Shown: positions 9,414 to 29,138, counted from the stretch's first letter. The stretch is 64,000 bases of DNA from Promethearchaeati archaeon (GCA_026993975.1 JALWRR010000076.1:2016-66015); one strand, 5' to 3'. Notes: generated by a model from the sequence alone, not told the origin. Numbers and translations are program-made.

Positions 9414-9423
9414 GGAGACAAAT

Positions 9424-10596: not shown

Positions 10597-10606
10597 GGAG
10601 GACTAA

Positions 10607-10828
10607 ATGAAGATCAAGTTAAAAGATCCCAAGCGGGTCTACTTTGATCGTCAGACGGGCGCCACTATGTATGGTGATAAAGTTCTGACTGTCAAAGCTA
10701 CTGAGTATGTTCGGCAGATGATCAATCAAGGCTGGGCAGTAGAGGTAGAAGACAAAGCTCCTGAGCCTGAGAAAGAGCCTGAAAAAGAGCCTCAAAAGAC
10801 TGCTCCGAAAGTTTCTAAGGAAAAATAA
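10607..10828 (+). CDS. Hypothetical protein (73 aa), PE/KE-rich tail.
   Basis: ORF with AAGGAGG RBS. Confidence 0.5.
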   Translation: MKIKLKDPKRVYFDRQTGATMYGDKVLTVKATEYVRQMINQGWAVEVEDKAPEPEKEPEKEPQKTAPKVSKEK

Positions 10829-11777: not shown

Positions 11778-11778
11778 T

Positions 11779-12231: not shown

Positions 12232-12292
12232 GGACTGTCCATAATAAGATATGCTTACATATAAAAATGTACAAATCAATTAAGGAGTACTT

Positions 12293-13126
12293 ATGGCTTC
12301 AAAAGCTAAAACCCAAGAATTTTTCATTGGTGACCTTGAGCTTCGTGCAAGCATGGACCTCACTAAGGCCGGTGAATTAGGACCTGCTGAGTCCCTCGGA
12401 CTGGTTACTGATTGTAAGATTGCTATGACCACCAATGAAGCAAAGCTTCAAGCCGGGTTTCCTCAGAGAACTTATGCGACCGCCGTAACATCCCGTGACC
12501 TTGAAATCACAGGTAATATGACGGAGTATACTCTGACTAACCTTGCCCTGCTCTATGGTGATGAGCGTGCGTTTAACAATGCATCTACCGCCACTGCTGC
12601 TCAGACTACTCTGTCCTCTGCGTTTACTGCTGGTGGAACTACTCTGTCTGTTGCTAGTGCTGCTGATTTTAGTCCTGGTGATTTCATCTATGTTCGTGAC
12701 CAGCATGATGCTACTGATGTTTTCGCTACTCAGGTAGCCGCTGTTGATGGGACTGCAAACACTATTGATGTTACCTATCCTATCAGTCGTGATTTTGCTA
12801 CTGGAAGTGTTGTAGTTAAGGGAGAGGCGATTATCCTCGGCTCTGAAGACAATATTCCTCCTATGACTGTTCAGGTTGTTGGTGTTATGCCCCTGGATGG
12901 TGAGCCCTTTGTCTATGACATTTGGAAAGCTACTATTTCTGGTACTGTTGAAGTTGCGTCCTCTACTGATAACTTCGGTTCTCTGGCTTATACCATTGCG
13001 CCTCTGGCTCCTGGTTCTGCTGAGATTGAGTGTGGAGTTTATGGTACTGATCCTGCCAAGAAAGCCATGCTGAAGCAGTTCCTCCAGGGACGCCTGATGA
13101 AAGGTGTTGGTACTACCAGCTGCTAA
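12293..13126 (+). CDS. Major tail (tube) protein (putative, 277 aa).
   Basis: High-expression codon usage and strong RBS. Followed by large stem-loops, two chaperone-like ORFs and the tape measure gene. Confidence 0.55.
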   Translation: MASKAKTQEFFIGDLELRASMDLTKAGELGPAESLGLVTDCKIAMTTNEAKLQAGFPQRTYATAVTSRDLEITGNMTEYTLTNLALLYGDERAFNNASTATAAQTTLSSAFTAGGTTLSVASAADFSPGDFIYVRDQHDATDVFATQVAAVDGTANTIDVTYPISRDFATGSVVVKGEAIILGSEDNIPPMTVQVVGVMPLDGEPFVYDIWKATISGTVEVASSTDNFGSLAYTIAPLAPGSAEIECGVYGTDPAKKAMLKQFLQGRLMKGVGTTSC

Positions 13127-13146
13127 ACTACTTCCCTTCGGGGAGT

Positions 13147-13197
13147 GTAGGATTTACACAGCCGCTCTTGCCCGTCGAGCGGTGGTGTAAATTCTAC
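13147..13197 (+). promoter_or_regulatory. 51-nt near-perfect RNA hairpin (21-bp stem), preceded by a small UUCG hairpin at 13132-13145. No T-tract follows it.
   Basis: GTAGGATTTACACAGCCGCTC / GAGCGGTGGTGTAAATTCTAC arms with one mismatch and two wobble pairs. Confidence 0.5.
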
Positions 13198-13211
13198 CAA
13201 AAGGACGGGCT

Positions 13212-13562
13212 ATGGAAGAATACTTTTCTATTCGACTTATTGATTCTGATGAGATCATTCCCTTTGTACTTACCTATGCAATTCACAAAGATCTCCAACC
13301 TTATTTAGCTGAAGAGTCTAGACTATTTAATATGTTCACGGACGTGGAAATAGCTGACACTGTAGTACAAATGTGTCTTGCTACCCGGAATGAAAAAGGC
13401 CAAATAGTACAGGACTTTGATAAGCAAAATAAGCTTGATGCTGGTGATGCTGTAACACTGCTAGACTTTGTTTTTGAATATTTCTCTAAATTTTTTTTAA
13501 CTCATCAGCAGCTAGTGAAGGAGACTCTGGAGAATCTGGAGAATCAAGCTCAGCCACAATAG
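13212..13562 (+). CDS. Tail assembly chaperone candidate (116 aa).
   Basis: Conserved position between the major tail gene and the tape measure gene. Confidence 0.45.
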   Translation: MEEYFSIRLIDSDEIIPFVLTYAIHKDLQPYLAEESRLFNMFTDVEIADTVVQMCLATRNEKGQIVQDFDKQNKLDAGDAVTLLDFVFEYFSKFFLTHQQLVKETLENLENQAQPQ

Positions 13563-13582
13563 ACCTTCTTCTTTCTAAATCA

Positions 13583-13834
13583 ATGGATGAGTTACTACTG
13601 TGGCTCTATGACTATGATAAACTAGCTTACTATAAAGCATGTACTTCTCTTACTTATGAAGATCTTAAAGAGGCTGCGATACTCAAACTGGAGATTGCCA
13701 CCAGCCATTACTACGATATATTTAAAATAACAGCCCAAGCATTTGGAAACGAGGTTAAAGACAGTCCTAAAAAGAAATCTAACCTCCCAAAAGCTGGGTT
13801 TGATCAAATAGCAGCATTTATAGGAGCTATGTAA
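13583..13834 (+). CDS. Tail assembly chaperone candidate (83 aa).
   Basis: Position only. Its stop overlaps the tape measure start (TAATG). Confidence 0.45.
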   Translation: MDELLLWLYDYDKLAYYKACTSLTYEDLKEAAILKLEIATSHYYDIFKITAQAFGNEVKDSPKKKSNLPKAGFDQIAAFIGAM

Positions 13835-16800
13835 TGACCTCAGCTGAAATTCTAAAGCTATTAAAAAAGAATCCTAATTTTAAAGTAATAAAGTTTGATA
13901 CTGGTATTACTATTGATACTGGTGATAGAAGTTATATTATATCAGACCCTAATATTTCTAAGTCTCTACCTAAGCATCCTAATATTGAAGATGTTAAAGA
14001 AGTTCAAGCTAGAAATCCAGACTATCTTAGAGAGCTAGGAAAATTTGGTGAAAGAGTAGATAATATACCAAAACAACTGTTTGAGGGCAAGAAACCTATT
14101 CATGATCCTTATAGTACTAAAAGAACTATTCCTCAAAGAGATATAACTCAAACCTCTAGAATTTCTATCGAAGCTAGTGAGGTAGTACCTACTAATATTA
14201 ACGCCTTAATCAATGATTTTTTCACTAGCTATTTAGCTTCTGGCTCAGATAAATCTCCACTTGCTTATTATGATGAGTATGCCAAGAAAAAGAAGTTTGA
14301 TGTAAAGACTCTTAAACAGTTTAGTAAGACTACAATCAAAAAAGAGATAGAAAGACTTTCTAAAAGTAAGGATTTAGAAAAGTTCAAAGGTTATCAAAAG
14401 AAACTGTTAAGAGCTAAGTTTAAAGCATATGAATATGAAAGAGATCTTCAAGTAAAATTAGATCAAGCAGTCTTGTATTCCAATGGTGAGTATGTTGTCT
14501 TTACTAATCAGAGAATGTCTGATAAGTCTTTAAATACTCTTGGTACTGTAATGCAAGATTTATTTAAAGTTAATGACACTATTAAAGTTATGGATAGTAC
14601 TAGGGTTCATACTATTATACCTAAAGGCGAACATATCTTTATAGATGGCTTTGTTCATAATAAGCAAATGCTAGATTTAAATCAAGTAGTAGCTGATACT
14701 CTAAGAGTAGATAGAACTTTAAGCTTAGCTAATGTATCTAAAGCTGATCAAGCTTTTATTCAAAAGCAAAATGAAATTGCTCCTGGGGCTATAAGAGAGC
14801 TGCAAGATCTAGTAAAAGCTTCTACTAAAGGTCTAAACTCTTCTGAAATGGTAGTGGCCTTAAACAAGCGAAAAGTTGGTGAGCTTAAAAATCTAGCAAA
14901 GAGACTAGGAATTGAAACTCACTATCTTCAAAAGTGGCACTATGCAGATGATTCTAGTCTTTCCACCGTATTACCTAATGATTTTAAAAAGAATTTGATA
15001 AATAATGCTATTCAAAAGGATATGACAACTTGGAATAAGACAATCAATAGAAAAAAAGCCAGTATCTTTAAACGAGCAAAATCTTTAGGTATAGATCCTG
15101 AAGCTCTTAAAAAAGAACTATCTAAGTTCTCTATTGGTGAGCGTGAAGCTAGACCTGAAGTTTTCGATAGATATTCTAAAACTCTTGATCTAATCTATAG
15201 AAATCTTAGTGAAACTAGAGTAGAAGCTCTAAAAGATCTTAAGCTAAAAGGAAATGTTAGTATCTCTGAGATTAAACGTCTTTTGAACAGAAATAAAGTG
15301 CGTAAATATAGAGATGCTGATGTAGCTAAACTTTACGAGTATCTTCATAAAGATGTTCCTGAGGGTGGCAAGTTACTTGAGAAGAATAAATATCTTAGAA
15401 CTAACTTAACTAATCCTCTTGTGAACTTAGAGGGTAGATTAAAACAACGTGCCACTAATAAATTCATTAGTATGCTAGTTAATGAAGCTGCTACTACACG
15501 ACCTACTAGAATTAGACCTTTTGATCCTAAAAGAGTAGAACAACTTTTATCTATCTTTTCTGATAAGGGCTTTAATAAGCTTGCAAAGCTTGTAGAAAAT
15601 CCTCCAAGTGCTCTAGGAAAAAAAGGCGGTGAAGCTTTTACTCGAGCCATGTATGAAAAGTTTGGTGGTGAACAAGAGTTCACTAAATTACTAGGTAAAT
15701 TTACAGGTGTGCCTGATGTAGACTACAGAGCTGCAAGACCATTTGAAGCTAATCCGGAGGCTGTATTTGGAGAGATAGGTGATGAACGTTTAGATAAAAT
15801 AGCTAAAGAATCTTTAAACACCGGTAAAGTAACTGATACTGTTCCTGGAAATGAAGTTCTTGCTAGTGATATTAATAAGTATCTTGATGATCTACTAAGT
15901 AATCCTGAACTTAGTAAGAAAGAAAAAGAAAGAGCCCTACAACAGAAAATACTTGATGAGCTAGGTAGAACTAGAGGCTATGATGTTTATGAATATCAAC
16001 TTGGAGAAAAGGCTATTAAAGTAGCTAAGTATCTTGAAAGTGGTAAGCCTTTAAATCTATCACAGCTAGGAGAATACATAGACCTAGCTAAAGAACTTGG
16101 TATTAATGTAGAGCACGAGGATCTTAAGAACGTTCATAAGAAAGTAAAAGAAAAGATTGAAAAAGTACTTGAGGTTCAGTTTGGTGGAAAAGTAGACTTA
16201 ACCCGCAAAGCCGTCGGTGTAGGTATGAATAACTACCTATTTAAACAAACTGCCACTGCACCCGCTGCTGCTTTTGATGCTCTTGGCATTTCTGAACTTG
16301 GCTGGGCAAAAGACTTAGGAAATGGCAAGGTCGATTATGGTCAGTTAGTTAGGTATGCTGAGAATCCCGCCAATTTTCCAATTTTTGCTGGTAAAGGTGT
16401 CATGAAGAAATTTCATGAGACTATGAAAACTATAGGCGGACCACTTCATGAGGGCTGGTATACCAAGAGAGAACGCAATGCTGTAGATGAGTTTAGAAGA
16501 AACGATGTAATGGTATCACCTGCAGAAAGAGCCCAAGTTAAATATGACCTATTTGAATGGTATAAAAATAAACCTTTTGTTTCTAAGCCAGTTACTAGTG
16601 GATTTGGTCGTAGTGTATTCAAAGCAACAAAAGTATTTGAACAGAAATTTGATCCTAGAACTTTTAGTCTAGTAGATGATCCTCAATTAACTAAGGCCAA
16701 AAAGAATAGAGCTTTAGCATTTATGTATAAACATCCTGGATTTAAAAAGTTTCAAAAAGCCATGGTATCTAAAGCTATGGATAAGTTTAAATCTGAGCAG

Positions 16801-19800
16801 CTGAAGCAAATGCTAAGAAGTAATACTGAAGTAATTATTAAAGCCTATGCTGGAGAAAAGCTTGGTATAAAAGGAGACCAACTAGCTATACATACTAGAA
16901 GAACCTTAGAGCATATAGGTAATTTATTCCAATTTATAGAGCAACAAAAAAAGGCTGGTAATTGGGTAGTAGCTAACTCTTTAGAGTATGGCCTAGAAAA
17001 GACACTAAAAGATACTCAAAAAGCTTTAAGTAATAAGGGTTATTTTAGTGAAACTAATCAAAAGCTCATTGATAAGGTTTTAACTAATCCTACTGAGGTC
17101 AATAAAAAAGTATTATCTCATGCTGCCTCTAAACTTGGGGACTATGCACTTGAATATGCTGGTGCACATGGGGTAGAGATGCCTACTTATGGTATTGAGT
17201 ATCCTAAGGGCGGGTTAGTCATAGAAGACTTAGTAGCTAGTGAAGCTAAGAAAAAATTACTTGGCTATGGCAAGGGCACTGGAGTACCTTTTAGAGGCAT
17301 TACTGAGTATGAGTATGCTCATGGCATTGCAATGCCAAAGCTGTTTGAAGAGCTCAGTACTGTTAAAGACCCTATGAATTTATTAGAGAAGGCAGAAGCA
17401 GATGCATTTAAAAAGGATAGAAAGTTTGCTGATATGCAATTCTATCCAAAAGAGCCAAATGCTGTTAAACCTTTATCCATGTATCAAAAGCTTACTAGAG
17501 CTGCAGCAGCTGCTAAAGGTAAACCTTGGGTATCGCCAGTAAAACTTGTTAGTTTTAAAGAGCCCAAGGACATTATAACTAGTAGACCTTCAGTACCATT
17601 TACTGCAGAGCCTATGTATGGTTTTAATTCTATTCCAGTAGATTATGGTACTAAAACATTATTTGATATCAATGCAGTTAATTTCCAAAAAGCAGTTCCA
17701 GACTTTGTAGGTCATGAGAGACTTAGAAAAAAGTATTTAGATGTTTTGGAAAAATTGCCTGAAGAGAAAAAAGCTGAGTGGCTAAAACGCTACTTAAAAC
17801 GTTTCAAAATGCTTAATCGCGGCGGTAAGATTCCCGGAAAAGGCACAAAAGACGAAGTACCGGCATTATTAACTAAAGGTGAAACAGTAGTTGATCGGAA
17901 AACATCAGAAAAACTTGGTATTCATTCTCAAGCAGACTACGAAAGATTCAAAGCTGCTGTACACGCTGGAAAAATCAATAAGTTTGCTGATGGTGGATGG
18001 GTAGAGTTTGCTAATATCTTAAGAGATGCAAATAAGCCAGAAGACTTTGCAAAAGCTAAAGAGCTATTTGATAATTTATCTGGTAATGATAAAACAGCAG
18101 CAGAACAATTGTTAGCTAGTAATGGAATGACTTATGACAGTCTTAAGAGTCAAGCCTCGGTATCTAGTCAAAGAAGAACTCAATCTACACCTAGACAGCC
18201 TAAGAATAGAACTAGTGCTGCAAAAATGACTATTAACATGGCTAGAGGATCTTTTAGAATAGATAAAAATGAGAATCCAAAATTTAACATTAACAAGATT
18301 GATACTTATCTAAATAGCGTTCAAGGTGCAGATATTCTAGCAAATTCCGGTAATGAAGTTTCTAAGAGAGCTGTAGAACGAGCTAAACGAAATATCTCTA
18401 AAGAATTTCTTAGTAATTATGGTCTTAATGAAACTATGTTAGCTGAAATTAGTAGTGGTACTCCATCTAAAGCTACAAAACGAGCTATAAAAGGTTTATC
18501 ATTAGATCAAGTTACTCAGATCAAAAATATTGGAAAACAATTTGAAAAATTAAACCCAGAATTACATGCATTCACTCAGAATATAAAGACCTATAATAAA
18601 CAATTTAATGCTTCTAAAAAGAGCAAGACTAAAATGCCTACTAAGTTTAAACTTGATAGAGATCTTTTAGCATCTAATGCTGAAATGCTTGGAGAGGCGT
18701 TTGGTATTAGTCCAGAGGAGTTTAAAAAGTTTGCTGGAGCTAGCAAGAAAAAGACTTTCAAACAGCTCAAGAAAATTATGGAGAATATTGACTATGCGAA
18801 TCTTAAGCCTGAGACACAAACTAAATCAGTAGAAGCACTACAAGCTCAGAGCGATTCTTTAAGAGCCTTTAAGCGGCTGTCTGAGCAAAGCTATAAAACT
18901 GGTACAATGTTTAAAGAGCGGCAAGCTGTAGAAGCCTATGCAAGTCAAATTGAAAGAGCTTATTCACAAAGACGCCAAGCACAAGCAAGAATTGGTGAAT
19001 TTGGTTCTTTGATGATGCAGAATGCAGCATTTATGGGCTCTTACGTAGCAATTGATGCAGTCTCTGGATTGTTCACTAAAACTATTGGATTCATGTCTGA
19101 ATTTAGTGATGCTACAAAGAATCTCCAAGCAATTACTGGCGACACTACTGATGGCCTTAATATTATGGTTAAAGCCATTAAGAAAGTATCTACTGAGACT
19201 AAATTCTCAGCAGTAGAGATTGCTGACGCTGCTACCATCTTAGGCCAGGCTGGCTTCTCTGCTGTAGATATCCAAAAATCACTAGGCGGGGTTGTTAAAT
19301 TAGCTACTGCTACTGGCTCTAAGCTTGAGGATGCAACTCAGATTCTTACCTCAGCATTGACTATCTGGGATAAACCACTGTCTGAGTCTAAGAAACTGGC
19401 CAATGAATTTACTGCAGCTATTAACCAATCTAAGCTAGATATTCAGTCTTTAACTGGAGCTATCCAATATACAGGTAACATTGCAGCTGCGGCTAAAATT
19501 CCAGTAGAAGATGTGTTAACAATGACAGCTCTATTAAAAGATGCTGGTATTAAACGAGCTTCTACTCTTGGTACTGGTCAGCGTCTGTTATACTCTGATA
19601 TTAGTGCTCCGTCTAAAAAGTTTGTTGAGTCTTTAAAAGACGCAGGTATTACTCTTGCGGAGTTTACAAAGACCTTTGATGAGCAAGGTATTCTTGGGGC
19701 ATTAAAACTGATGAAAGATGCGGGCTATGGCATGGCTCAAGCATCAAAAGGTATGGAGCTTCGTGAGAAAGCCACTTATTTGGCTGCTATCAATCAGCTT

Positions 19801-22800
19801 GAAAAAGCCCCTATGTTTAGAGCTGGTATTGTAGGTACCAGTGCGGCTGATATTGCTAACACTGTTCAGATGGAAGGACTTGGGAATTCCTTTAAGAACA
19901 TGCTGAACTCTTGGCAAATTTCTATGAATGATATTGTAGGTGGGCTAGAGAAACCCTTAGTAGATTTAACTAAGGCACTTACTATAGCACAGAAAAATAG
20001 AAGTCAAGATCAGAGTATATTTACCAATAACTTTACTTTAGAAGACAAGCTAAGACCAGATAAAAGTGCAAGCCCATTAATTCTTGGTGGAGTCACGGCT
20101 GCAGCGATGATGGCTGCAGTCGGTATTGGACCTAAGAGATTAGGAGCTATTGCTCTAGAGTCTGGCAAACAACTTGGTAAAATGATTGGTGAATCCAAAT
20201 TTTTACCTGAAGGAATTAAGCATGGCTTAACAGCTACATTACCTGGGGCTATTGGTACATTAGAAAGGTATTCTGAAAAAATAGGGGGTAAAAGAGTATT
20301 ATCAGCCGTAGGTAAACATGCTGGAGGCTTAGCCTATGGAGCCGCTTCAGCTTATCTTGCTCCTGAAGGTAGTAAGATGGATGCTACTATGAGTGCCTTT
20401 ATGCAGTATGCTGGATATATGGGAGGTACTAAGTTTGCAGACAGAGTAGCTATAAAAACTTTAGGTTGGGATCCTAAAGCATTTAAGTCTAGACTACTAA
20501 GAGGTGGAGCTGGTATTGGAGCTGCTTTATTGCTAGATCAGTTAACTTCTTCTGGAAGAAATTCTGAAGATGGTATGAGTAGAGGCACAGCTGCCTTGAC
20601 TACTGGTCTCACTGCTGCAGCTATGACTCCAGGTGGACCTTTTGTTAGAGCTTTAGCTGGGCTAGCAGTAGGTGGACTATCTTACTTATCTACAGCTGAA
20701 GCACCTACTATAGGTGTTACTAAGGCACTCCAAGTACTAACTAATGATGCTAAGGCCCTTTCAGCTGAGTTAAATACTTTAGGAAAGTCAGCAACATCTA
20801 TTAGTGATCTTTCTAATTATGCTTTAAGATATTCTCCAAATGCCAGTTTTGCTGAGAAGCAAAGTAAGGTAGCTGCTACAGTTGAAGAATTTGCTGCGGT
20901 TGGTGATAATCTTAAAAACTTGGAAAAAGTCTTATCTTCTTATGGCGGTGGGTTTGCTGGATTTAACTTTGGATCTAGATTTACTACTAGAGACATTAAT
21001 GCTGGAATCTTTACTGTTCAAAAGTTTGTAGCTGATGGAGCTACAATAAAATCAGTAGATTTTACTGGTAAATTTAATACCGCTGCTGAGGCTGCAGCTT
21101 TCTCTTTACGCTCTGCTCAAACAGCTGCTTATAATGCCCTATCTGCTCCTGGTGGTGCCTATGAAACTAAATTTAATGAGCTAAAAAGTAAAGAGTTTAC
21201 AAAGTATAAAGAAAAATTAGAAGGAGCTAAGACATTTGAAGAAAGAGCTCAAGTATACCAAAGAGAAGTTATTCAGCCTCTTTTTGATCTATTTAGAAAC
21301 GCTCCTTCTGTAGGAATGAGAAATAAGCAAGGCTTTTGGTCTATACTTATGAGTGCTGGTATGCAGTTAAGGTCTCAAACTCCAGAAGAAGAGCGCTATA
21401 GAATTGATAATATGATAGATAGATACGAGAAGCAGTTTAAGGCTATGACAGAAGTAGCTTCTCTAAATGCCCAAACTTCGGCTCAAGTATTAGAAATAGC
21501 CAAACAAAGAATTGGCCAAGGCCAAGCAGCCTTTGATGCTTATTTCAAGAAGAATAAGCAAGGTGAATATCTTAAGTCTACTAGAATAGACATGGAAGCC
21601 TACCGGCAGTTTAAGAGTAAAGAAGTCGGCTTAGACCATATGCTGGATAAGATTAATGAGAAGGCTCTAAAACTTAATAAAATAAATACGACTGCAGTTA
21701 ACTTAACTAGAACCATGAGTGTTCAAGCTGCTGAGGCTATGAAAGGTTCGATAGTTACTTTAGGACCTGATCTATTTAATGTAGCGATTCAAACAGCTAC
21801 TGAGCTTATGCCAGTACTAGATAACCTTACTAAGAATATTAGAACTAATATTTCTAAGTTGGGTGACTTACAAGGTGTTTCAGCTGCATCATACCTTAGA
21901 GGACATAAAAACTTTACCTTAATTGATGAGAAGGCTTTTGAAAAATACGTAACTTCAAAAGGTAAAGATCTAGATAATAAAGAATTAGCTAAGTTGCAAG
22001 TAACTGGAGAAAATCTAGTAAATATTTCTGGGTATAGAGCTAGTACGACAGTTGGTACACAACTATTAGACATCTACAAAAGAAATGAAGCTAGGACTAA
22101 TGCTATAGTAGATAAGGTTCTTAGAATGGCTTCACCAGCTGAGGCTCAAGATATCACTCAGTATAGAATGAGAAAAGGCCTTGATAGAACTATGCAAGGT
22201 TTAGGCTTTGCTGGATATAATGAATTTAGAATAGCTCAGTCTCAGGTTAATCCTATGACTGCTAGTATAGAACAAATAAAATCTCTAGCTAAGCCTTCTA
22301 TGATTAGAAGCATGGAGATGAAAAAACAATTTGCTATAGATCAAATTCATACTAATGAAATTTATGCTGAAAAAATGGCCTATAAGCAAGCGGATATTAG
22401 TAAGCGTGAACTAGGTATATCTATAGATCAAAAAGTCGCTGCCATGGCTCGCCAGGATAATTTTAATAGAATGATGGCTAAAAGATCCTTTGAATTTAAT
22501 AAGCAACAGTTACTGCAAACTACAGCTTGGAAAGCTGAAGATCTTTATCAAAATTATGACTATGCACTTGAAGATATTAGTAAAAACTATTCAAGAGCTA
22601 TAGACAATATTAATACTGGATATGAAAGAGCTGTAGCTAAGATCCAAAGAAGCGCTGAATATTCCAGAGAAAGTGCTCAGATTCATGCTGATAGAGCTAG
22701 AAGAGATGCTAAGATTAGATATGAAAGACAAATTGAAGATATAGGGATCAAAGCAGCTAGACAAAGAGAAGCTGCTCAGATAAATTACAGTAGACAAGTG

Positions 22801-25575
22801 GCGGATATTGCAAGACAAGGTGCCTATCAAAGAGAAGCCATCATTAGAAGATCGGCTTACCAAGAGCAAAGAGCTAGACTTAATTTTGCTCGTGGTTTAG
22901 AAGATCTAAATAGGGCTATAAATAGACGCATAGAAGATATGAAAGAAGGTAAAGACTTTCAACGAGAAGATGCTTTACTTAAGTATCAAAGAGCTGTAGC
23001 TAAAGCACAGCGTAGCTACCAAGATACTCTTAATGCTATACATAGAAACTATCAAAGAAATATTGAAGCCATAGAGCGAAGTAGACAAGATACTATAAAT
23101 GCTTTCAATAGATCTTTAGAGCGTCCTCAAGTTATAACTCTTGACCCAGGTAAGCTGGATATTATTGCCAATGCAATAAACGATTGGTCTTTAGCATTAG
23201 ATGCTCATAAAGCGGCATTGGCGGCTAATACTACTGCAATAAAACAAAATTCAGCACTACAAAAAGCCAAAGAAAATATTGTAGCAGAAGCTTATAAAGA
23301 TGCTTATAAGAAAGTCGGTGGAAAAGTTTATGATGAAAACGGCAATATTAATGCTGATTTCACTAAAGCATATCAAGATTATTTGAATAATAACTCTGAA
23401 AAATTAATTGATACTGTTCTTGAAAACGCCCTAAATAGAGCTTTTGCTGGAATAGGATTTAATATTGATCAAGCTTTAAATAATCCAGCTTACTTAGCCA
23501 ATATGGTAGCTAATCCAATGCCAGCTATGACCACTGCTGGAGCATTAACTGGAAGTGGATTAACTGGAAATCAAGCTGCACAAGCACTTTATGGCATTAA
23601 AGCTAATGAGGTTAGAATTTCTACAACTACTGGTGTTATCTTAGAAGCTCAAGGAGGTATGGAAGGAGCCTTATACGATCTTGAGACTGCTATGATAAAC
23701 TTTGATATAAAGATTAGAGAAGCTGGTATTAATTTAAATCAAGCTTTAGAAGATGCAGCGATTAATCTTCAAATTACACTGAGAGAACTTGCTATTAGCT
23801 ATCAGCAAGCATTAGAAGATATTAACAGAGTATTTGCTGAGCAGTCTGATCAACTCTCTAAACAACGAGAAAGAGGTTTAGAAGATTTACATTTAAGACT
23901 TCAGCGACAACTAGAAGATATTGCTATAAGCAGACAGCAAGCACTGTCTGAGTTATCTATAAGCTTAGGACAGGCATTTGAGCAAGCTAGAATTAGTTAT
24001 CAAAGAGCACTAGAAGACATTGCTAGAAATGAGCAGCAAGCAATGGAAGACGCCAGAAGAAACTATGAGCGTTCAATGGAGGATATAAATAGAGGTCTTA
24101 AGGATGCTTTTGATGATATAACTAGAAATATGAATAATGCTATAAATGAAGCTGGAATTGGAAGAACTCAAGCCATAGAAGATGCCACTCTTAGAATGAA
24201 ACAAAATATAGAAGATGCAGGAGAATCTTTACGAAGAAACTTACAAGCAGTAGATGATAGCTATCAAAGAAACTTACAAGTAATGACGGATCAGTTAAAT
24301 CAACTGTTAGATAATATGTCTCTTAAGTTTCAGTTTAATTACGATGAACTTATGATTCAAATGGAAGAAATGAAAGGTAAGATAGATAGAAATTTACAAG
24401 ATACTGTTGATAATATTCATGAAAAATCTACAGAAGCTATTAATAACCTGAATACTCAGTTTGATAATATGTGGCGTCAATGGATAGAGACTGCTAGAAC
24501 TAAAGGCCAAGAAGCAATAGACGCTTTAAGAGAAAGCTTTAGTGCTAAAACTTGGGATACAGCTGTTATGCTGCAGAATCTACAGTCCCAGTTAGATAAT
24601 GTTTGGCGGAATCTTAAAGTAGATGCTGATGCTATAGTCCAGCAAGTAGCAGCTGGAATGAAGGCAGCATTTAGTGGTGCTGCTATGAAGCAGATAGAGG
24701 CTCAGTTAGGTAAAGATGTTTCTGATCTTGTTAGAAAAGGTCTTAAAGTAACAAACGTAGATACTAAAGAACTTAAGAAAAATATTGAAACCGCTCTTGA
24801 TAATCTATTTAAGAAAGAACTCGCTCAGTCTACTAAAGCGACTGCTGAAGCTCTTGTAGAACCTGTAGCAATGCTTACTGAACAGACTACTAAAGCTGGT
24901 CAAGCTATGGTTCAAGGCTCTACTCAAGTAACACAAGGAGCACAGCAATTAAAGCAAGCAGGCGAGAGTTTAAAAGGTAGTGGTGAGAATTTAAAAAGAG
25001 GAGCTGAGGATTTAAAACAAGCTGGACCTAATTTAGTTCAAGGCGGGGCGTATCTAAAAGTAGCTGGAGAAACACTAATACAGGCTGGAGATCCACTTGA
25101 AGCAGCAGGTAATAGCTTGATTCAAACAGCTCCATTAGTAATATCTGGAACTCAGCAGATGGCAGTTGCATTGTCGATGCTTGCTGGGTCTATACCTCCA
25201 TTGATTAATGCAGTAGTTATCGCTGCACAGCAAGCTAAAGCTCAGCTAAATCAAGCTAGCAGCGGCTATTCTACTGGAGGCCTAATTCCTGGGTATGGTG
25301 GCGGGGATATTGTTTATGCTATGCTTGAGCCTGGAGAATTTGTAGTAAGGAAAGAGGTAGTTAGAGCTAAAGGTGAAGACTACTTTAATAGACTAAACTA
25401 TGGGGTTGAAAATGTTCAACCTGTTACAATTCAAACTACAAGTTCACCAAATATACCTGGACAGGGTATCAATGTGAACATTGGAGTACAAGCGAATGTT
25501 GGAGTAGATGCTATTAAAGAAAATATAGAGGTTATCGCAGATGGAGTTAGAAAAGTCTTTGAGGAGTATGCCTAA
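13834..25575 (+). CDS. Tape measure protein, 3913 aa.
   Basis: An 11.7-kb open frame in AT-rich DNA, so it is clearly coding. The central region (about aa 1700-1900) resembles the TMP core, for example AVEIADAATILGQAGF and GAIQYTGNIAAAAKIP. It also has Gly/Ala-rich hydrophobic segments and long periodic coiled-coil repeats (ALEDI-type) in the C-terminal third. Confidence 0.75.
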   Translation: MTSAEILKLLKKNPNFKVIKFDTGITIDTGDRSYIISDPNISKSLPKHPNIEDVKEVQARNPDYLRELGKFGERVDNIPKQLFEGKKPIHDPYSTKRTIPQRDITQTSRISIEASEVVPTNINALINDFFTSYLASGSDKSPLAYYDEYAKKKKFDVKTLKQFSKTTIKKEIERLSKSKDLEKFKGYQKKLLRAKFKAYEYERDLQVKLDQAVLYSNGEYVVFTNQRMSDKSLNTLGTVMQDLFKVNDTIKVMDSTRVHTIIPKGEHIFIDGFVHNKQMLDLNQVVADTLRVDRTLSLANVSKADQAFIQKQNEIAPGAIRELQDLVKASTKGLNSSEMVVALNKRKVGELKNLAKRLGIETHYLQKWHYADDSSLSTVLPNDFKKNLINNAIQKDMTTWNKTINRKKASIFKRAKSLGIDPEALKKELSKFSIGEREARPEVFDRYSKTLDLIYRNLSETRVEALKDLKLKGNVSISEIKRLLNRNKVRKYRDADVAKLYEYLHKDVPEGGKLLEKNKYLRTNLTNPLVNLEGRLKQRATNKFISMLVNEAATTRPTRIRPFDPKRVEQLLSIFSDKGFNKLAKLVENPPSALGKKGGEAFTRAMYEKFGGEQEFTKLLGKFTGVPDVDYRAARPFEANPEAVFGEIGDERLDKIAKESLNTGKVTDTVPGNEVLASDINKYLDDLLSNPELSKKEKERALQQKILDELGRTRGYDVYEYQLGEKAIKVAKYLESGKPLNLSQLGEYIDLAKELGINVEHEDLKNVHKKVKEKIEKVLEVQFGGKVDLTRKAVGVGMNNYLFKQTATAPAAAFDALGISELGWAKDLGNGKVDYGQLVRYAENPANFPIFAGKGVMKKFHETMKTIGGPLHEGWYTKRERNAVDEFRRNDVMVSPAERAQVKYDLFEWYKNKPFVSKPVTSGFGRSVFKATKVFEQKFDPRTFSLVDDPQLTKAKKNRALAFMYKHPGFKKFQKAMVSKAMDKFKSEQLKQMLRSNTEVIIKAYAGEKLGIKGDQLAIHTRRTLEHIGNLFQFIEQQKKAGNWVVANSLEYGLEKTLKDTQKALSNKGYFSETNQKLIDKVLTNPTEVNKKVLSHAASKLGDYALEYAGAHGVEMPTYGIEYPKGGLVIEDLVASEAKKKLLGYGKGTGVPFRGITEYEYAHGIAMPKLFEELSTVKDPMNLLEKAEADAFKKDRKFADMQFYPKEPNAVKPLSMYQKLTRAAAAAKGKPWVSPVKLVSFKEPKDIITSRPSVPFTAEPMYGFNSIPVDYGTKTLFDINAVNFQKAVPDFVGHERLRKKYLDVLEKLPEEKKAEWLKRYLKRFKMLNRGGKIPGKGTKDEVPALLTKGETVVDRKTSEKLGIHSQADYERFKAAVHAGKINKFADGGWVEFANILRDANKPEDFAKAKELFDNLSGNDKTAAEQLLASNGMTYDSLKSQASVSSQRRTQSTPRQPKNRTSAAKMTINMARGSFRIDKNENPKFNINKIDTYLNSVQGADILANSGNEVSKRAVERAKRNISKEFLSNYGLNETMLAEISSGTPSKATKRAIKGLSLDQVTQIKNIGKQFEKLNPELHAFTQNIKTYNKQFNASKKSKTKMPTKFKLDRDLLASNAEMLGEAFGISPEEFKKFAGASKKKTFKQLKKIMENIDYANLKPETQTKSVEALQAQSDSLRAFKRLSEQSYKTGTMFKERQAVEAYASQIERAYSQRRQAQARIGEFGSLMMQNAAFMGSYVAIDAVSGLFTKTIGFMSEFSDATKNLQAITGDTTDGLNIMVKAIKKVSTETKFSAVEIADAATILGQAGFSAVDIQKSLGGVVKLATATGSKLEDATQILTSALTIWDKPLSESKKLANEFTAAINQSKLDIQSLTGAIQYTGNIAAAAKIPVEDVLTMTALLKDAGIKRASTLGTGQRLLYSDISAPSKKFVESLKDAGITLAEFTKTFDEQGILGALKLMKDAGYGMAQASKGMELREKATYLAAINQLEKAPMFRAGIVGTSAADIANTVQMEGLGNSFKNMLNSWQISMNDIVGGLEKPLVDLTKALTIAQKNRSQDQSIFTNNFTLEDKLRPDKSASPLILGGVTAAAMMAAVGIGPKRLGAIALESGKQLGKMIGESKFLPEGIKHGLTATLPGAIGTLERYSEKIGGKRVLSAVGKHAGGLAYGAASAYLAPEGSKMDATMSAFMQYAGYMGGTKFADRVAIKTLGWDPKAFKSRLLRGGAGIGAALLLDQLTSSGRNSEDGMSRGTAALTTGLTAAAMTPGGPFVRALAGLAVGGLSYLSTAEAPTIGVTKALQVLTNDAKALSAELNTLGKSATSISDLSNYALRYSPNASFAEKQSKVAATVEEFAAVGDNLKNLEKVLSSYGGGFAGFNFGSRFTTRDINAGIFTVQKFVADGATIKSVDFTGKFNTAAEAAAFSLRSAQTAAYNALSAPGGAYETKFNELKSKEFTKYKEKLEGAKTFEERAQVYQREVIQPLFDLFRNAPSVGMRNKQGFWSILMSAGMQLRSQTPEEERYRIDNMIDRYEKQFKAMTEVASLNAQTSAQVLEIAKQRIGQGQAAFDAYFKKNKQGEYLKSTRIDMEAYRQFKSKEVGLDHMLDKINEKALKLNKINTTAVNLTRTMSVQAAEAMKGSIVTLGPDLFNVAIQTATELMPVLDNLTKNIRTNISKLGDLQGVSAASYLRGHKNFTLIDEKAFEKYVTSKGKDLDNKELAKLQVTGENLVNISGYRASTTVGTQLLDIYKRNEARTNAIVDKVLRMASPAEAQDITQYRMRKGLDRTMQGLGFAGYNEFRIAQSQVNPMTASIEQIKSLAKPSMIRSMEMKKQFAIDQIHTNEIYAEKMAYKQADISKRELGISIDQKVAAMARQDNFNRMMAKRSFEFNKQQLLQTTAWKAEDLYQNYDYALEDISKNYSRAIDNINTGYERAVAKIQRSAEYSRESAQIHADRARRDAKIRYERQIEDIGIKAARQREAAQINYSRQVADIARQGAYQREAIIRRSAYQEQRARLNFARGLEDLNRAINRRIEDMKEGKDFQREDALLKYQRAVAKAQRSYQDTLNAIHRNYQRNIEAIERSRQDTINAFNRSLERPQVITLDPGKLDIIANAINDWSLALDAHKAALAANTTAIKQNSALQKAKENIVAEAYKDAYKKVGGKVYDENGNINADFTKAYQDYLNNNSEKLIDTVLENALNRAFAGIGFNIDQALNNPAYLANMVANPMPAMTTAGALTGSGLTGNQAAQALYGIKANEVRISTTTGVILEAQGGMEGALYDLETAMINFDIKIREAGINLNQALEDAAINLQITLRELAISYQQALEDINRVFAEQSDQLSKQRERGLEDLHLRLQRQLEDIAISRQQALSELSISLGQAFEQARISYQRALEDIARNEQQAMEDARRNYERSMEDINRGLKDAFDDITRNMNNAINEAGIGRTQAIEDATLRMKQNIEDAGESLRRNLQAVDDSYQRNLQVMTDQLNQLLDNMSLKFQFNYDELMIQMEEMKGKIDRNLQDTVDNIHEKSTEAINNLNTQFDNMWRQWIETARTKGQEAIDALRESFSAKTWDTAVMLQNLQSQLDNVWRNLKVDADAIVQQVAAGMKAAFSGAAMKQIEAQLGKDVSDLVRKGLKVTNVDTKELKKNIETALDNLFKKELAQSTKATAEALVEPVAMLTEQTTKAGQAMVQGSTQVTQGAQQLKQAGESLKGSGENLKRGAEDLKQAGPNLVQGGAYLKVAGETLIQAGDPLEAAGNSLIQTAPLVISGTQQMAVALSMLAGSIPPLINAVVIAAQQAKAQLNQASSGYSTGGLIPGYGGGDIVYAMLEPGEFVVRKEVVRAKGEDYFNRLNYGVENVQPVTIQTTSSPNIPGQGINVNIGVQANVGVDAIKENIEVIADGVRKVFEEYA

Positions 25576-26168
25576 TGTTTTTAATAACTAAGTATCTTTA
25601 TAATGGGCTAGCTTTTAAAGAATATTCTGGAATAGTACCAACCATGGTAAATTTAGACGTGATACCAGTAAAAGTAAATATTCCTAAAACTACTTGGAAA
25701 TTATCTTATGATTATGTAAAGAAGGATTTAAAAAACTACATAGAGGAAGCTCTATATGAAAACTATAATGATCTTTATTTAGACCCGACTATTGGACCAG
25801 CTTTTTATATTCATAAGTATATAGACCTGCTATCAAATGTCAAATACTACATGACTTATATTCATGAATATGCTTTTTATCAAAAACCAGTAAATAGGCA
25901 AATAAACTATATAGAAGATGGTACTAATCACGTACTGGATGGAGGACTAGTTATTCCTAATGATCTAGATGGAACAACTGTATTAGAGCTTGATTTTTAT
26001 CCATTTCCTAGAAAAGTTTTTATGCCAAAAAACTCATTAGATGTTACTCATAAAGCTAATGGGCTATTTGGTATTAGACTTGAGCTAGAAGACATTGCTA
26101 AACCTCTTGATCTTGCTAATATATTCATAATTGGGAAAAGTCATGCTGGTACTTCTGAACTTTGCTAA
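25575..26168 (+). CDS. Distal tail/baseplate protein candidate (197 aa).
   Basis: First gene after the TMP. Confidence 0.45.
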   Translation: MFLITKYLYNGLAFKEYSGIVPTMVNLDVIPVKVNIPKTTWKLSYDYVKKDLKNYIEEALYENYNDLYLDPTIGPAFYIHKYIDLLSNVKYYMTYIHEYAFYQKPVNRQINYIEDGTNHVLDGGLVIPNDLDGTTVLELDFYPFPRKVFMPKNSLDVTHKANGLFGIRLELEDIAKPLDLANIFIIGKSHAGTSELC

Positions 26169-27048
26169 TAAATTTAAGCTAGCCAATTACTACATAGATG
26201 GGGCTACTTATGTATCTTCATTAAAAGTAAATAACTTCAACTCAAAAAAAGCTTTAGCCATAGACTCAATATCATTTAATTTACATACTGAGGTATTTGA
26301 TAGTATAGGAGAGTCTTTAGCTTATATATGTTATAATACTCTAGTAGATGTATATCTTGATGAGCAAAAGGTTATGCAAGGCTATGTAGATAAGCTTGCT
26401 ACAAGTTCTACTACTAATGTACGACTCACATTGAGATCTCTAGTTGCCTTGCATAGTAAATTAACTATATCTCCTCAAATAGAAAATACTTGTCAAAATC
26501 AAGTTTATTCCTATATGTGTGGACTAAATAAAAATGACTTTGCTTGTGAATTTACCAATGTTACTATTGATTGTTTTACTGGCCTAGTAACACTAGATAT
26601 AGATGGAGTTGCTGGTACAGCTTCTTTAGGCGGTAGTCCTAGCGCTACTTTTCCTAGAGCTGCAACTACTGCCCCTATAAATAATCCTTTATTCTTAAAA
26701 AAGGAAAACTGGTGGAATGCTTTTGTTATTTTAAATGATGTCTATAGAGCAACAGTTGTAAATGTATCTGAAAGTGCTATAACTCTTGATATAAATCATT
26801 TAGAAGCCACAGTGACTGCTAGTAACGTTAAAGTGTACCTAAAATGTGATAAAACTTATGGTACTTGCTATAAACGGTTTAGTAATACTAAAAACTTTTG
26901 GGGCTTTCCTAATAATGGTAACAAGATTCAAACTCTTGATATATTCAGTGCAAGCAGTCTAGAGTACTGTGGTGCTGATTACTCTGATCAAGAATTTGAA
27001 TACTGTGATACTGACTTTAATATATTTGGAGTGAATATCAATGAATGA
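26131..27048 (+). CDS. Tail tip protein candidate (305 aa).
   Basis: Position only. Confidence 0.45.
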   Translation: MGKVMLVLLNFANKFKLANYYIDGATYVSSLKVNNFNSKKALAIDSISFNLHTEVFDSIGESLAYICYNTLVDVYLDEQKVMQGYVDKLATSSTTNVRLTLRSLVALHSKLTISPQIENTCQNQVYSYMCGLNKNDFACEFTNVTIDCFTGLVTLDIDGVAGTASLGGSPSATFPRAATTAPINNPLFLKKENWWNAFVILNDVYRATVVNVSESAITLDINHLEATVTASNVKVYLKCDKTYGTCYKRFSNTKNFWGFPNNGNKIQTLDIFSASSLEYCGADYSDQEFEYCDTDFNIFGVNINE

Positions 27049-29137: not shown

Positions 29138-29138
29138 T

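What the first reader, a model, noticed from the sequence alone, without database searches (positions are those of the whole stretch)
13834..25575. Exceptionally long tape measure gene (11.7 kb, 3913 codons)
This is a single uninterrupted frame in DNA where stops are frequent. It has a recognisable TMP core in the middle, Gly/Ala hydrophobic segments, and hundreds of residues of periodic coiled-coil repeats in the C-terminal third. The N-terminal about 1700 aa are Lys-rich and unrelated to typical TMPs. At about 0.15 nm per residue, a fully extended TMP would imply a tail of several hundred nm. Alternatively the N-terminal half is an ejected or internal domain fused to the ruler.
Basis: partly seen in the sequence, partly recalled or inferred. 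Interest (0 to 1): 0.55.

Follow-up and report, generated by a model that had tools for sequence, protein, structure and literature searches.

The report
Giant tape measure with orphan N-terminal half
This is a real 3,913-codon phage tail "tape measure" gene whose first ~1,740 residues are a fast-evolving extension found only in one group of uncultured phages; it predicts a tail about 0.6 µm long and may carry an extra, still unknown job.

Summary
The ORF 13834-25575 (+) is real. It is 3,913 codons long, the chance of no stop is ~1e-136, and the other five frames stay open for ≤125 codons.

[quoted passage not shown] The PF10145/TIGR01760 core lies at aa ~1741-2000. The gene follows a tail chaperone with a −1 slippery site, and tail-tip genes come after it.

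An assembly artefact is excluded:
- The gene has no DNA repeats.
- The exact protein occurs on three contigs.
- Eight full-length orthologues (3,589-4,341 aa, 24-32% identical) share the architecture.

Size alone is not unique. 36 of 128 related metagenomic TMPs are ≥3,000 aa, and P23-45 gp96 has 5,002.

The unusual part is the layout. In 120 other large TMPs the core starts at about aa 143. Here and in five orthologous clusters it starts at 1742-1908.

The N-terminal extension is non-repetitive and basic, and has no homologues outside the clade. Its one conserved element is a ~60-aa motif (aa 1318-1399) that recurs at the C-terminus and matches lambda gpH 729-784.

The P23-45 precedent, a virion RNA polymerase fused to the TMP, was tested and not supported.

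Most likely the whole chain lies in the tail lumen, giving a tail of roughly 0.6 µm. A post-ejection function for the extension remains open.

The parts
13212..13562 (+). Tail assembly chaperone (G-like), 116 aa
   Evidence: ORF directly upstream of the TMP, after the major-tail-like gene at 12293-13126. Its position matches the chaperone of Caulobacter phage Seuss.
13493..13834 (+). Slippery heptamer T_TTT_TTA (13493-13499) and the −1 frame extension (GT-like). Its stop overlaps the TMP start codon (ATGA).
   Evidence: The heptamer lies in the chaperone's frame. The −1 frame stays open from there to 13834.
13834..25575 (+). Giant tape measure protein gene, 3,913 aa. GGAG lies 8-11 nt before the ATG.
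13834..17784 (+). N-terminal extension, aa 1-1317. It is an orphan, non-repetitive, Lys-rich and net basic. The model shows mostly short helices plus a small alpha/beta region at aa 1-55 and ~185-275.
   Evidence: No hit in Pfam, PHROGs, NCBIfam, PDB or GenBank phages. Exhaustive HMMER finds only orthologous giants. AF2 pLDDT is 50. No fold match. No periodicity.
17785..18030 (+). TMP motif copy 1, aa 1318-1399 (…RGGKIPGKGTKDEVPALLTKGETVV…LGI…F…FADGG). It is the only strongly conserved island of the extension.
   Evidence: About 48% column identity in 8 orthologues. Motif HMM E 2.8e-19. Matches lambda gpH 729-784, Douge gp16 and the JBD30 TMP.
18031..19053 (+). Linker, aa 1400-1740, between motif copy 1 and the core. 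Poorly conserved. The motif-to-core distance is 406-549 aa in 9 orthologues.
19054..19833 (+). TP901-1-type TMP core, aa 1741-2000 (PF10145 1780-1982; TIGR01760 1742-1976)
   Evidence: Column identity across orthologues is 60-78% over aa 1751-2000.
20041..20853 (+). Gly/Ala-rich hydrophobic region, aa ~2070-2340, with a TM-like segment at 2078-2096
22351..23133 (+). First array of 11-residue repeats, aa 2840-3100
23134..23643 (+). Conserved island between the two repeat arrays (aa ~3100-3270, 40-58% column identity). No family match.
23641..24693 (+). Second array of 11-residue repeats, aa 3270-3620. It gives a weak Apolipoprotein-like helical-repeat hit.
24691..25233 (+). 7-residue repeat region, aa 3620-3800, ending in a TM-like segment at 3776-3794
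25243..25413 (+). TMP motif copy 2, aa 3804-3860 (…TGGLIPGYGGGDIVYAMLEPGEFVV…), 53 aa from the C-terminus. This is the usual place for the motif.
   Evidence: Motif HMM E 4.4e-16. hhalign links copy 1 and copy 2 (E 3e-5).
25575..27048 (+). Downstream tail-tip genes: 25575-26168 (197 aa) and 26131-27048 (305 aa; PHROG tail assembly protein, PF09356 Phage_BR0599)

Best explanation
The ORF is one genuine gene for the tail length tape measure protein of an uncultured, roughly 72-kb siphovirus. The phage is distantly related to Caulobacter phage Seuss and to Acinetobacter and Vibrio phages of ~80 kb.

The C-terminal 2,170 aa form a complete TP901-1-type TMP. They hold the core, hydrophobic Gly/Ala segments, hendecad and heptad repeats, and a C-terminal lambda-gpH-like motif that should anchor in the tail tip.

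In front of this sits a clade-specific extension of ~1,740 aa. It is translated as part of the same chain.

Siphovirus tails assemble separately from heads, by polymerisation of the tube around the chaperone-coated TMP trimer. The extension therefore has nowhere to be except inside the tube lumen. The whole chain should set the tail length at about 3,913 x 0.15 nm, or ~0.6 µm. A length of ~0.33 µm would apply only if the extension were removed.

The extension is not a simple spacer made by repeat expansion. It is non-periodic and basic, and has the same layout in all orthologues. It carries an extra copy of the TMP motif ~470 aa upstream of the core. It probably also has a role at the head-proximal end or after ejection. 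The N-terminus leaves the tail last, next to the DNA end.

Shown: the gene is real, it is a TMP, the architecture is conserved and clade-specific, and no known enzyme signature is present.

Inferred: location in the lumen, contribution to tail length, and any extra function.
For: Real gene:
- P(no stop) is ~1e-136.
- An SD site precedes the ATG, and the ATG overlaps the stop of the −1 chaperone extension.
- The identical protein is on 3 contigs.
- There are no DNA repeats.

TMP identity:
- PF10145, TIGR01760 and PHROG TMP families.
- Synteny with the Seuss chaperone-TMP-tip module.

Conserved architecture:
- L017 has 3,813 aa and L018 has 3,702 aa.
- P0004-P0008 have 3,589-4,341 aa, with a motif at 1210-1484 and the core at 1759-1906.
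- Partial orthologues L003, L005, L008 and L013 also run as giant ORFs.

Clade-specific layout:
- In 126 large TMPs the core starts at a median of aa 143.
- Only this clade has the core at >1,700 and a motif upstream of it.
- More distant core relatives have 1,069-2,762 aa, with the core at aa 87-314.

TMP-like nature of the extension:
- Motif copy 1 matches the TMP motif profile and solved TMP chains.
- The extension is net positive, like other TMPs.

No internal start with an SD site lies at the junction.

Length logic: an N-terminal duplication lengthens the TP901-1 tail proportionally (PMC5099701). The 5,002-aa P23-45 gp96, including its N-terminal enzyme, goes with a tail of nearly 1 µm (PMC10770324, PMC10034513).
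Against: No virion has been seen, so tail length and processing are unknown.

The extension does not look like classical ruler sequence:
- It has no repeats or amphipathic periodicity.
- It has more Pro and aromatic residues than the post-core part.
- The low-confidence AF2 model shows many short helices and a small alpha/beta region rather than long helices.

Its length varies less (CV 6.5%, n=9) than that of the C-terminal part (CV 12%, n=8). That hints at a defined architecture rather than a spacer.

In TP901-1 the N-terminal 154 aa are essential and are thought to contact the head-tail connector (PMC5099701). Here the equivalent region is buried 1,740 aa inside the chain, which the standard model does not explain.

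One related contig (L016) has the gene in 3-4 overlapping frames. These are most simply sequencing frameshifts, but a split gene is not strictly excluded there.
Confidence: 0.6

Rival explanations
1. Cargo or pilot model. The N-terminal ~1,740 aa are a functional module fused to the ruler, delivered into the host through the tail just ahead of the DNA. The module could bind or protect DNA ends, counter host defences, or be an unrecognised enzyme. This is analogous to the virion RNA polymerase fused to the N-terminus of the P23-45 TMP. It may still be stored unfolded in the lumen and so also lengthen the tail.
For: - Precedent: residues ~1-1,100 of P23-45 gp96 are an active virion RNAP that sequence searches do not recognise (PMC10770324).
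- The extension is non-repetitive, has the same layout in all orthologues and varies less in length than the ruler part.
- It is net basic in all 8 orthologues.
- It has scattered invariant residues: N127, Q312, L380, NPxxNxxG at 527-534.
- AF2 gives moderately confident local folds at aa 1-55, 120-280, 310-410 and 990-1100.
- The N-terminus is the end next to the DNA.
Against: - There is no DxDxD motif in the window protein, and none is conserved in 8 orthologues.
- A profile of the extension finds nothing in the PDB at E≤10, and scores ≤0.2 bits against gp96.
- No Pfam, PHROG or NCBIfam domain is found.
- Only ~20 of 1,300 positions outside the motif are conserved. They are mostly G, P, N and L, and are not catalytic-looking.
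- Identity between orthologues is 10-20%, which is low for an enzyme.
- No fold match in the PDB or BFVD.
Confidence: 0.3
2. Processed-precursor model. The protein is made as one chain, but the extension is cleaved off. A possible site is near motif copy 1, which resembles a TMP C-terminal end. The extension would then act as an assembly factor or a separate virion component, and the tail would be of ordinary length for a ~2,170-aa ruler (~330 nm).
For: - Motif copy 1 is of the kind that normally lies ~100 aa from a TMP C-terminus (median 99.5 aa). So aa 1-1500 end like a TMP does.
- Lambda gpH is proteolytically processed during tail assembly (established knowledge).
- In contig L016 the frame breaks ~200 aa after the motif.
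Against: - Internal copies of the motif are normal in large TMPs (2-6 copies), so the motif does not mark an end.
- hhalign finds nothing but the motif shared between the extension and the ruler part.
- No protease domain or known cleavage signal is found.
- The L016 breaks also cut off the essential C-terminal 283 aa, and the two downstream breaks lie beside A-runs, which points to sequencing errors.
Confidence: 0.1
3. Artefact. Two genes were fused by misassembly, a collapsed repeat or a frameshift error.
For: The window comes from a metagenome-type assembly, and one related contig (L016) does show broken frames.
Against: - Eight full-length orthologues from different samples, at 24-32% identity, keep one open frame with the same layout.
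- The identical 3,913-aa protein is on 3 contigs in NCBI, ENA and Logan.
- No tandem or direct DNA repeat ≥25 bp lies in the gene.
- Composition is continuous across the gene.
Confidence: 0.02

Closest known systems
TP901-1-type tape measure proteins (PF10145 / TIGR01760), e.g. Caulobacter phage Seuss gp22 (1,822 aa) and TP901-1 TMP
   Same: - Same core domain: 35% identity to Seuss over ~320 aa.
- Same gene position after a frameshifted chaperone.
- Hydrophobic segments and 11-residue repeats are present.
- The gpH-like motif lies near the C-terminus: Seuss 1694-1761 of 1,822, here 3804-3860 of 3,913.
   Different: - The core starts at aa 1741. In Seuss it starts at 433, and the median for 126 large TMPs is 143.
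- About 1,740 aa of orphan sequence, with an extra motif copy, lie upstream of the core.
- Total length is about twice that of Seuss.
Thermus phage P23-45 gp96 (and P74-26), the 5,002-aa TMP with an N-terminal virion RNA polymerase (PMC10770324)
   Same: - It is a giant TMP.
- Its first >1,000 aa are not recognisable as TMP sequence and lie upstream of the ruler part.
- The phage has an extremely long tail.
   Different: - gp96 has the DFDGD motif (779-783) and a solved two-barrel RNAP fold. The window protein has no DxDxD, and none is conserved in its orthologues.
- There is no sequence or profile similarity between the two.
- gp96 has neither the TP901 core nor the gpH-like motif, and it carries a metallopeptidase domain that is absent here.
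Lambda gpH (853 aa), mycobacteriophage Douge gp16 (1,699 aa) and JBD30 TMP (1,158 aa), all solved-structure TMPs
   Same: They share the ~60-aa motif G-G-x-[IV]-P-G-x-G-x-x-D-x-V-P-A-x-L-x-x-G-E-x-V: lambda gpH 729-784, Douge 957-1030 and 1410-1473, JBD30 1015-1090. The C-terminus sits as a trimer in the tail-tip hub (PMC13033339, PMC11101478).
   Different: In those proteins every motif copy lies downstream of the N-terminal region. None has a long N-terminal extension. The function of the motif itself has not been described in the papers read.
Other giant metagenomic TMPs (≥3,000 aa) found in the representative library
   Same: They have comparable length (36 of 128 are ≥3,000 aa, up to 4,274 aa outside the clade), the same motif in 2-6 copies, and the same core family.
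   Different: Their extra length lies entirely downstream of an N-terminal core (start at aa 92-202 for the 10th-90th percentile), and their motif copies are spread along that part. Here about 45% of the protein lies upstream of the core.

Membership tests
Tail length tape measure protein, TP901-1 type (PF10145 / TIGR01760) | Core domain scoring above the curated cut-offs | tested here: met
   PF10145 scores 91.2 bits against a cut-off of 33.2, at aa 1780-1982. TIGR01760 scores 84.5 bits against a cut-off of 28.8, at aa 1742-1976. Ten PHROG TMP families match.
Tail length tape measure protein, TP901-1 type (PF10145 / TIGR01760) | Gene lies between the tail assembly chaperone pair (with −1 frameshift) and the distal tail / tail-tip genes, downstream of the major tail protein | tested here: met
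   The order is TerL, portal, MCP, 277-aa tail-like gene, 116-aa chaperone with T_TTT_TTA and a −1 ORF ending at the TMP ATG, then the tip genes including PF09356. This is the same order as in Seuss.
Tail length tape measure protein, TP901-1 type (PF10145 / TIGR01760) | Core located close to the N-terminus (typical architecture) | tested here: not met
   The core starts at aa 1741. The median is 143, and the 10th-90th percentile range is 92-202, in 126 large TMPs. Only the 6 clusters of this clade exceed 1,700.
Tail length tape measure protein, TP901-1 type (PF10145 / TIGR01760) | Conserved C-terminal end that anchors in the tail tip (gpH-like motif ~50-150 aa from the C-terminus) | tested here: met
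   Motif copy 2 lies at aa 3804-3860, 53 aa from the end (HMM E 4e-16). The last 113 aa are 45-77% identical in orthologues. Anchoring itself is inferred from the Douge and lambda structures (PMC13033339, PMC11101478).
Tail length tape measure protein, TP901-1 type (PF10145 / TIGR01760) | Hydrophobic segments and short periodic (11-residue) repeats | tested here: met
   TM-like segments at 2078-2096 and 3776-3794. An 11-residue period at 2840-3100 and 3270-3620.
Tail length tape measure protein, TP901-1 type (PF10145 / TIGR01760) | Tail length proportional to protein length | not testable with these tools
   No virion images exist for this uncultured phage or its clade. The prediction is ~590 nm at 0.15 nm per residue.
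TMP-fused virion RNA polymerase (P23-45 gp96 type) | Metal-binding DxDxD (DFDGD) motif in the N-terminal part, conserved among relatives | tested here: not met
   There is no D.D.D anywhere in the window protein. Single non-aligned occurrences appear in only 2 of 8 orthologues.
TMP-fused virion RNA polymerase (P23-45 gp96 type) | Sequence or profile similarity to gp96 1-1200 or to any two-barrel RNAP | tested here: not met
   phmmer against the PDB finds nothing relevant. A 6-sequence profile gives 0 PDB hits at E≤10. An 8-sequence N-extension HMM scores ≤0.2 bits against gp96.
TMP-fused virion RNA polymerase (P23-45 gp96 type) | Two double-psi beta-barrel fold | tested here: inconclusive
   The AF2 model of aa 1-1200 has pLDDT 50. 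It is mostly helices, with few strands. Foldseek finds no match at E≤0.001 in the PDB or BFVD. A model this weak cannot exclude a divergent fold.
TMPs with embedded cell-wall hydrolase (T5 pb2, mycobacteriophage and staphylococcal TMPs) | Lysozyme, transglycosylase or peptidase domain inside the TMP | tested here: not met
   No such Pfam, NCBIfam or PHROG domain appears in the whole protein, or in 500-1,080-aa pieces at E≤10.

The most novel reading that the evidence does not exclude
The ~1,740-aa N-terminal half may be a new kind of tail-delivered cargo. It would be a basic, fast-evolving multi-domain protein fused to the head-proximal end of the tape measure, stored unfolded in a ~0.6-µm tail and entering the cell with the leading DNA end. 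There it would act on DNA or on host defences. This would be a second, non-polymerase example of the 'TMP-fused ejected protein' principle so far shown only for P23-45.
Probability: 0.25. Interest if true: 0.7.

Novelty: new variant of a known kind. Interest (0 to 1): 0.45.

Why it matters
Tape measure proteins are the textbook molecular ruler. Their conserved core normally sits at the N-terminus, next to the head-tail joint.

Here a whole clade of uncultured phages keeps ~1,740-2,100 residues of orphan sequence in front of that core, and this raises two testable points:
- Does every residue of a TMP count towards tail length? If so, these phages have tails of 0.55-0.65 µm, among the longest known.
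- Is the N-terminal end of the tape measure a general docking site for proteins that phages send into the cell with their DNA? P23-45 uses it for an RNA polymerase.

In passing, the analysis also defines a ~60-aa motif shared by lambda gpH, Douge gp16, the JBD30 TMP and hundreds of giant TMPs. It has no Pfam model, and no function for it is described in the papers read.

Tried and rejected
Searches for relatives of the N-terminal extension:
- Megablast of the gene against GenBank phages found nothing.
- tblastn of aa 1-1500 against GenBank phages found nothing.
- The word-indexed 5.8-billion-protein search found nothing with aa 1-1500 or aa 1278-1500.
- The same search with the core found only two distant TMPs. 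That database evidently lacks the clade.
- IMG/VR scans with aa 1-1500 and with the downstream 305-aa protein found nothing.
- A genome-contig scan with the capsid protein found no prophage or host clue.

Domain and structure searches:
- Pfam at E≤10 on seven pieces gave only noise.
- NCBIfam gave only TIGR01760.
- PDB sequence and profile searches of the extension gave nothing.
- AF2 of aa 1-1200 (pLDDT 50) followed by Foldseek against the PDB and BFVD gave nothing significant.
- AF2 of the motif alone gave pLDDT 58, with the conserved stretch as coil.

Hypotheses rejected or not supported:
- Virion RNAP hypothesis: rejected on the DxDxD test and the gp96 comparison.
- Internal duplication hypothesis (extension derived from the post-core part): rejected, because hhalign finds only the motif in common.
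- Internal translation start at the junction: no in-frame ATG or GTG with an SD site in aa 1300-1760.
- Collapsed repeats: no DNA repeats.

Calls that did not run or led nowhere:
- Sample accessions were not found in the literature.
- The tail length of the related isolate TCUP2199 was not found in its paper.

Full report
**1. The observation**

The ORF runs from ATG 13834 to the stop at 25573-25575 on the + strand and encodes 3,913 aa. The region is 36% G+C, so a stop is expected every ~13 codons. The probability of 3,913 stop-free codons is about 1e-136. The other five frames of the same DNA carry 181-613 stops and stay open for at most 125 codons.

- TMP core: PF10145 at aa 1780-1982 (E 1e-25), TIGR01760 at aa 1742-1976, and ten PHROG tape-measure families over aa ~1515-2430.
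- A Gly/Ala-rich hydrophobic stretch at aa ~2000-2400, with TM-like segments at 2078-2096 and 3776-3794.
- Periodic repeats in the C-terminal third: 11-residue period at aa 2840-3100 and 3270-3620, and 7-residue period at 3620-3800.
- A Lys-rich N-terminal part: K is 12.6%, against 6.6% after the core and 5.8% in other proteins of the window.

**2. Context**

The gene sits in a canonical siphovirus morphogenesis module:

| Gene | Coordinates |
|---|---|
| Large terminase | 4951-6561 |
| Portal | 6591-8009 |
| Protease/scaffold-like | 7963-9015 |
| Major capsid protein | 9424-10596 |
| 277-aa tail-like protein | 12293-13126 |
| 116-aa chaperone | 13212-13562 |
| TMP | 13834-25575 |
| Tail-tip genes, including a PF09356 protein | PF09356 protein at 26131-27048 |

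- The chaperone has the slippery heptamer T_TTT_TTA at 13493-13499 in its own frame.
- The −1 frame stays open from the heptamer to 13834. There its stop overlaps the TMP start codon as ATGA.
- GGAG precedes the ATG. Most genes of the window have AAGGAG-type sites.
- So translation starts at 13834 and not at an internal site. No in-frame ATG or GTG with an SD site exists in aa 1300-1760.

The closest isolates are only distant. The terminase is 31-32% identical to those of Caulobacter phage Seuss and Vibrio phages. The TMP core is 35-37% identical to those of Seuss and of Acinetobacter phages Mystique and EAb13. The Seuss TMP has 1,822 aa, with the core at 433-673.

**3. It is not an artefact**

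- The gene has no tandem repeat above noise and no direct DNA repeat ≥25 bp. Nothing could collapse or mis-join.
- The identical protein is recorded on three contigs and in NCBI, ENA and Logan. The longest contig is 71,832 bp.
- Capsid-anchored IMG/VR relatives (62-78% MCP identity) show giant ORFs running off the fetched DNA at the same position.
- Core-anchored loci give two complete orthologues of 3,813 aa (L017) and 3,702 aa (L018).
- An exhaustive HMMER search of 1.84 billion cluster representatives returned the protein itself and five further orthologous clusters of 3,589-4,341 aa, P0004-P0008.
- The eight full-length proteins are only 24-32% identical, yet they align end to end in the same order.
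- One related contig (L016) carries the gene in 3-4 overlapping frames. The breaks also detach the essential C-terminal 283 aa, and the two downstream breaks lie beside A-runs. I read them as sequencing frameshifts.

**4. What is unusual**

Length alone is not unusual:
- Among the 128 related TMPs in which I could place the core, 36 are ≥3,000 aa and 9 are ≥3,900 aa.
- P23-45 gp96 has 5,002 aa (PMC10770324).

The layout is unusual:
- In 126 large TMPs with the same core, the core starts at a median of aa 143 (10th-90th percentile 92-202).
- The only exceptions are the six clusters of this clade, at 1742-1908.
- More distant relatives of the core from metagenomes have 1,069-2,762 aa, with the core at aa 87-314.
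- So about 45% of this protein is a clade-specific N-terminal extension.

**5. Anatomy of the extension**

It has no relatives outside the clade. This holds for GenBank phages, the word-indexed protein database, Pfam, PHROGs, NCBIfam and the PDB, both by sequence and by profile. The exhaustive search gives the same answer, apart from one short element.

Conservation across orthologues is 7-20% per 50-residue block, except for aa 1301-1400 at ~48%.

That island is a ~60-aa motif:

…F-x-x-G-G-x-[IV]-P-G-x-G-x-x-D-x-V-P-A-x-L-x-x-G-E-x-V-[IV]…L-G…L…N…F-x-x-G-G

- A model built from 431 occurrences finds two copies in the window protein: aa 1318-1399 (E 3e-19) and aa 3804-3860 (E 4e-16).
- hhalign of the extension against the rest of the protein finds this motif and nothing else. 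The extension is therefore not a duplicate of the ruler part.
- The motif occurs 2-6 times in nearly all of the other large TMPs. It always lies downstream of the core, and the last copy ends at a median of ~100 aa from the C-terminus.
- A profile of it hits solved TMP chains: Douge gp16 (two copies), the JBD30 TMP, and lambda gpH at 729-784.
- It has no Pfam or NCBIfam model.
- On its own it is not predicted to fold. pLDDT is 58 and the conserved stretch is coil. That fits a motif ordered only in the trimer or against a partner.

Other properties of the extension:
- It has no sequence periodicity.
- It is net positive in all eight orthologues, at +1.2 to +4.9 per 100 aa. The post-core part is −2.6 to +0.6.
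- Only ~20 positions outside the motif are near-invariant. They are mostly G, P, N and L, for example NPxxNxxG at 527-534.
- Extension length is 1,740-2,119 aa in nine orthologues (CV 6.5%). The C-terminal part is 1,831-2,436 aa (CV 12%). The motif-to-core distance is 406-549 aa.
- AF2 of aa 1-1200 with six sequences gave pLDDT 50. It shows many short helices, a small alpha/beta region (aa 1-55 and ~185-275, pLDDT ~50-80) and better helical stretches at 310-410 and 990-1100.
- Foldseek found nothing significant in the PDB or BFVD.

**6. The P23-45 precedent, tested**

The N-terminal ~1,100 aa of the 5,002-aa P23-45 TMP are a virion RNA polymerase. Sequence search cannot see it, and it was recognised by its DFDGD motif (PMC10770324). 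I confirmed DFDGD at gp96 779-783.

- The window protein has no D.D.D anywhere, and none is conserved among its orthologues.
- Profiles of the extension do not match gp96 or any PDB entry.
- gp96 has neither the TP901 core nor the motif.
- The extension is therefore not a member of that family.
- The principle that the N-terminal end of a TMP can carry an ejected protein remains a valid analogy.

**7. How it most likely works**

Shown:
- It is one translated gene, and it is a TMP by domain and by synteny.
- The C-terminal 2,170 aa form a complete TP901-type TMP.
- The extension is conserved in place, size and order across a clade.

Inferred from the established assembly pathway:
- The TMP trimer is anchored by its C-terminus in the tip complex and coated by chaperones.
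- The tube polymerises around it and stops at its N-terminal end. The terminator then binds and the finished tail joins a filled head.
- An N-terminal extension therefore cannot be left outside the tube, and it cannot be placed in the capsid. It should lie in the lumen and add to the length.
- At 0.15 nm per residue this gives ~590 nm, and 540-650 nm for the clade. A 2,170-aa ruler alone would give ~330 nm.

Two published observations agree with this. Duplicating N-terminal TMP sequence lengthens TP901-1 tails proportionally (PMC5099701). The P23-45/P74-26 tail of nearly 1 µm matches the full 5,002 aa, including the enzyme part (PMC10034513, PMC10770324).

The extension lacks repeats, has a comparatively tight length range and is basic throughout the clade. 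It is therefore probably more than a spacer. Its N-terminus lies next to the DNA end and leaves the tail last. A role at the neck, or a role in the cell with the incoming DNA, is plausible but untested.

I put 0.6 on 'whole chain in the lumen, ~0.6-µm tail'. I put 0.3 on the overlapping cargo reading, 0.1 on a processed precursor and 0.02 on an artefact.

**8. Verdict**

'Exceptionally long' is overstated, and the assembly-error alternative is excluded.

The notable feature is a clade-specific, orphan, ~1,740-aa N-terminal extension. It moves the normally N-terminal core to the middle of the protein and carries an extra copy of a widespread but undescribed TMP motif. This is a new variant of a known kind and of moderate interest.

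Noticed in passing
window 13212-13834: The tail chaperone pair has a textbook −1 programmed frameshift. The heptamer T_TTT_TTA at 13493-13499 lies in frame. The −1 ORF ends at 13834, where its stop overlaps the TMP ATG (ATGA).
   Followed up: partly
window 17785-18030 and 25243-25413; also lambda gpH 729-784, Douge gp16 957-1030 and 1410-1473, JBD30 TMP 1015-1090: A ~60-aa motif (GG-x-[IV]PG-x-G-x-x-D-x-VPA-x-L-x-x-GE-x-V…) recurs 2-6 times in nearly all of ~150 large TMPs and is present in three solved-structure TMPs. It has no Pfam or NCBIfam model, and no function for it is described in the papers read. On its own it is not predicted to fold.
   Followed up: partly
window 23134-23643 (TMP aa ~3100-3270): A second conserved island (40-58% column identity in 8 orthologues) lies between the two hendecad-repeat arrays. 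It matches no family and its role is unknown.
   Followed up: no
L016 5894-15944 (IMGVR_UViG_3300003177_000121): The orthologous giant gene is split into 3-4 overlapping frames (371 + 861 + 1,872 + 283 aa). The two downstream breaks lie beside A-runs. These are probably sequencing frameshifts, but a naturally split gene was not excluded.
   Followed up: partly
window 1-14000 versus 26000-36000: G+C drops from ~0.40-0.43 in the head module to 0.31-0.34 in the tail-tip/fibre module. The large proteins there (27041-29137, 31766-34219, 34244-37177) have no Pfam or PHROG match. This suggests a mosaic or fast-evolving host-recognition module.
   Followed up: no
window 37178-63662, minus strand: A replication and repair module lies on the opposite strand: an SbcC-like protein (37178-38986), family A DNA polymerase with 3'-5' exonuclease (42421-44310), an SNF2 helicase (47919-49319) and an unassigned 918-aa ORF (49316-52072). 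tRNA-Met (46361-46437) and tRNA-Leu-UAA (47146-47237) are also there. No RNA polymerase was recognised.
   Followed up: partly
window 9364-10584 (−): A 406-aa ORF lies antisense to the major capsid gene (9424-10596, +). It is almost certainly a non-coding shadow ORF.
   Followed up: no
Representative library hits P0009-P0152: Giant TMPs are common in metagenomes. 36 of 128 related proteins are ≥3,000 aa, up to 4,274 aa outside the clade, with an N-terminal core. This implies many uncultured siphoviruses with tails of 0.45-0.65 µm.
   Followed up: partly
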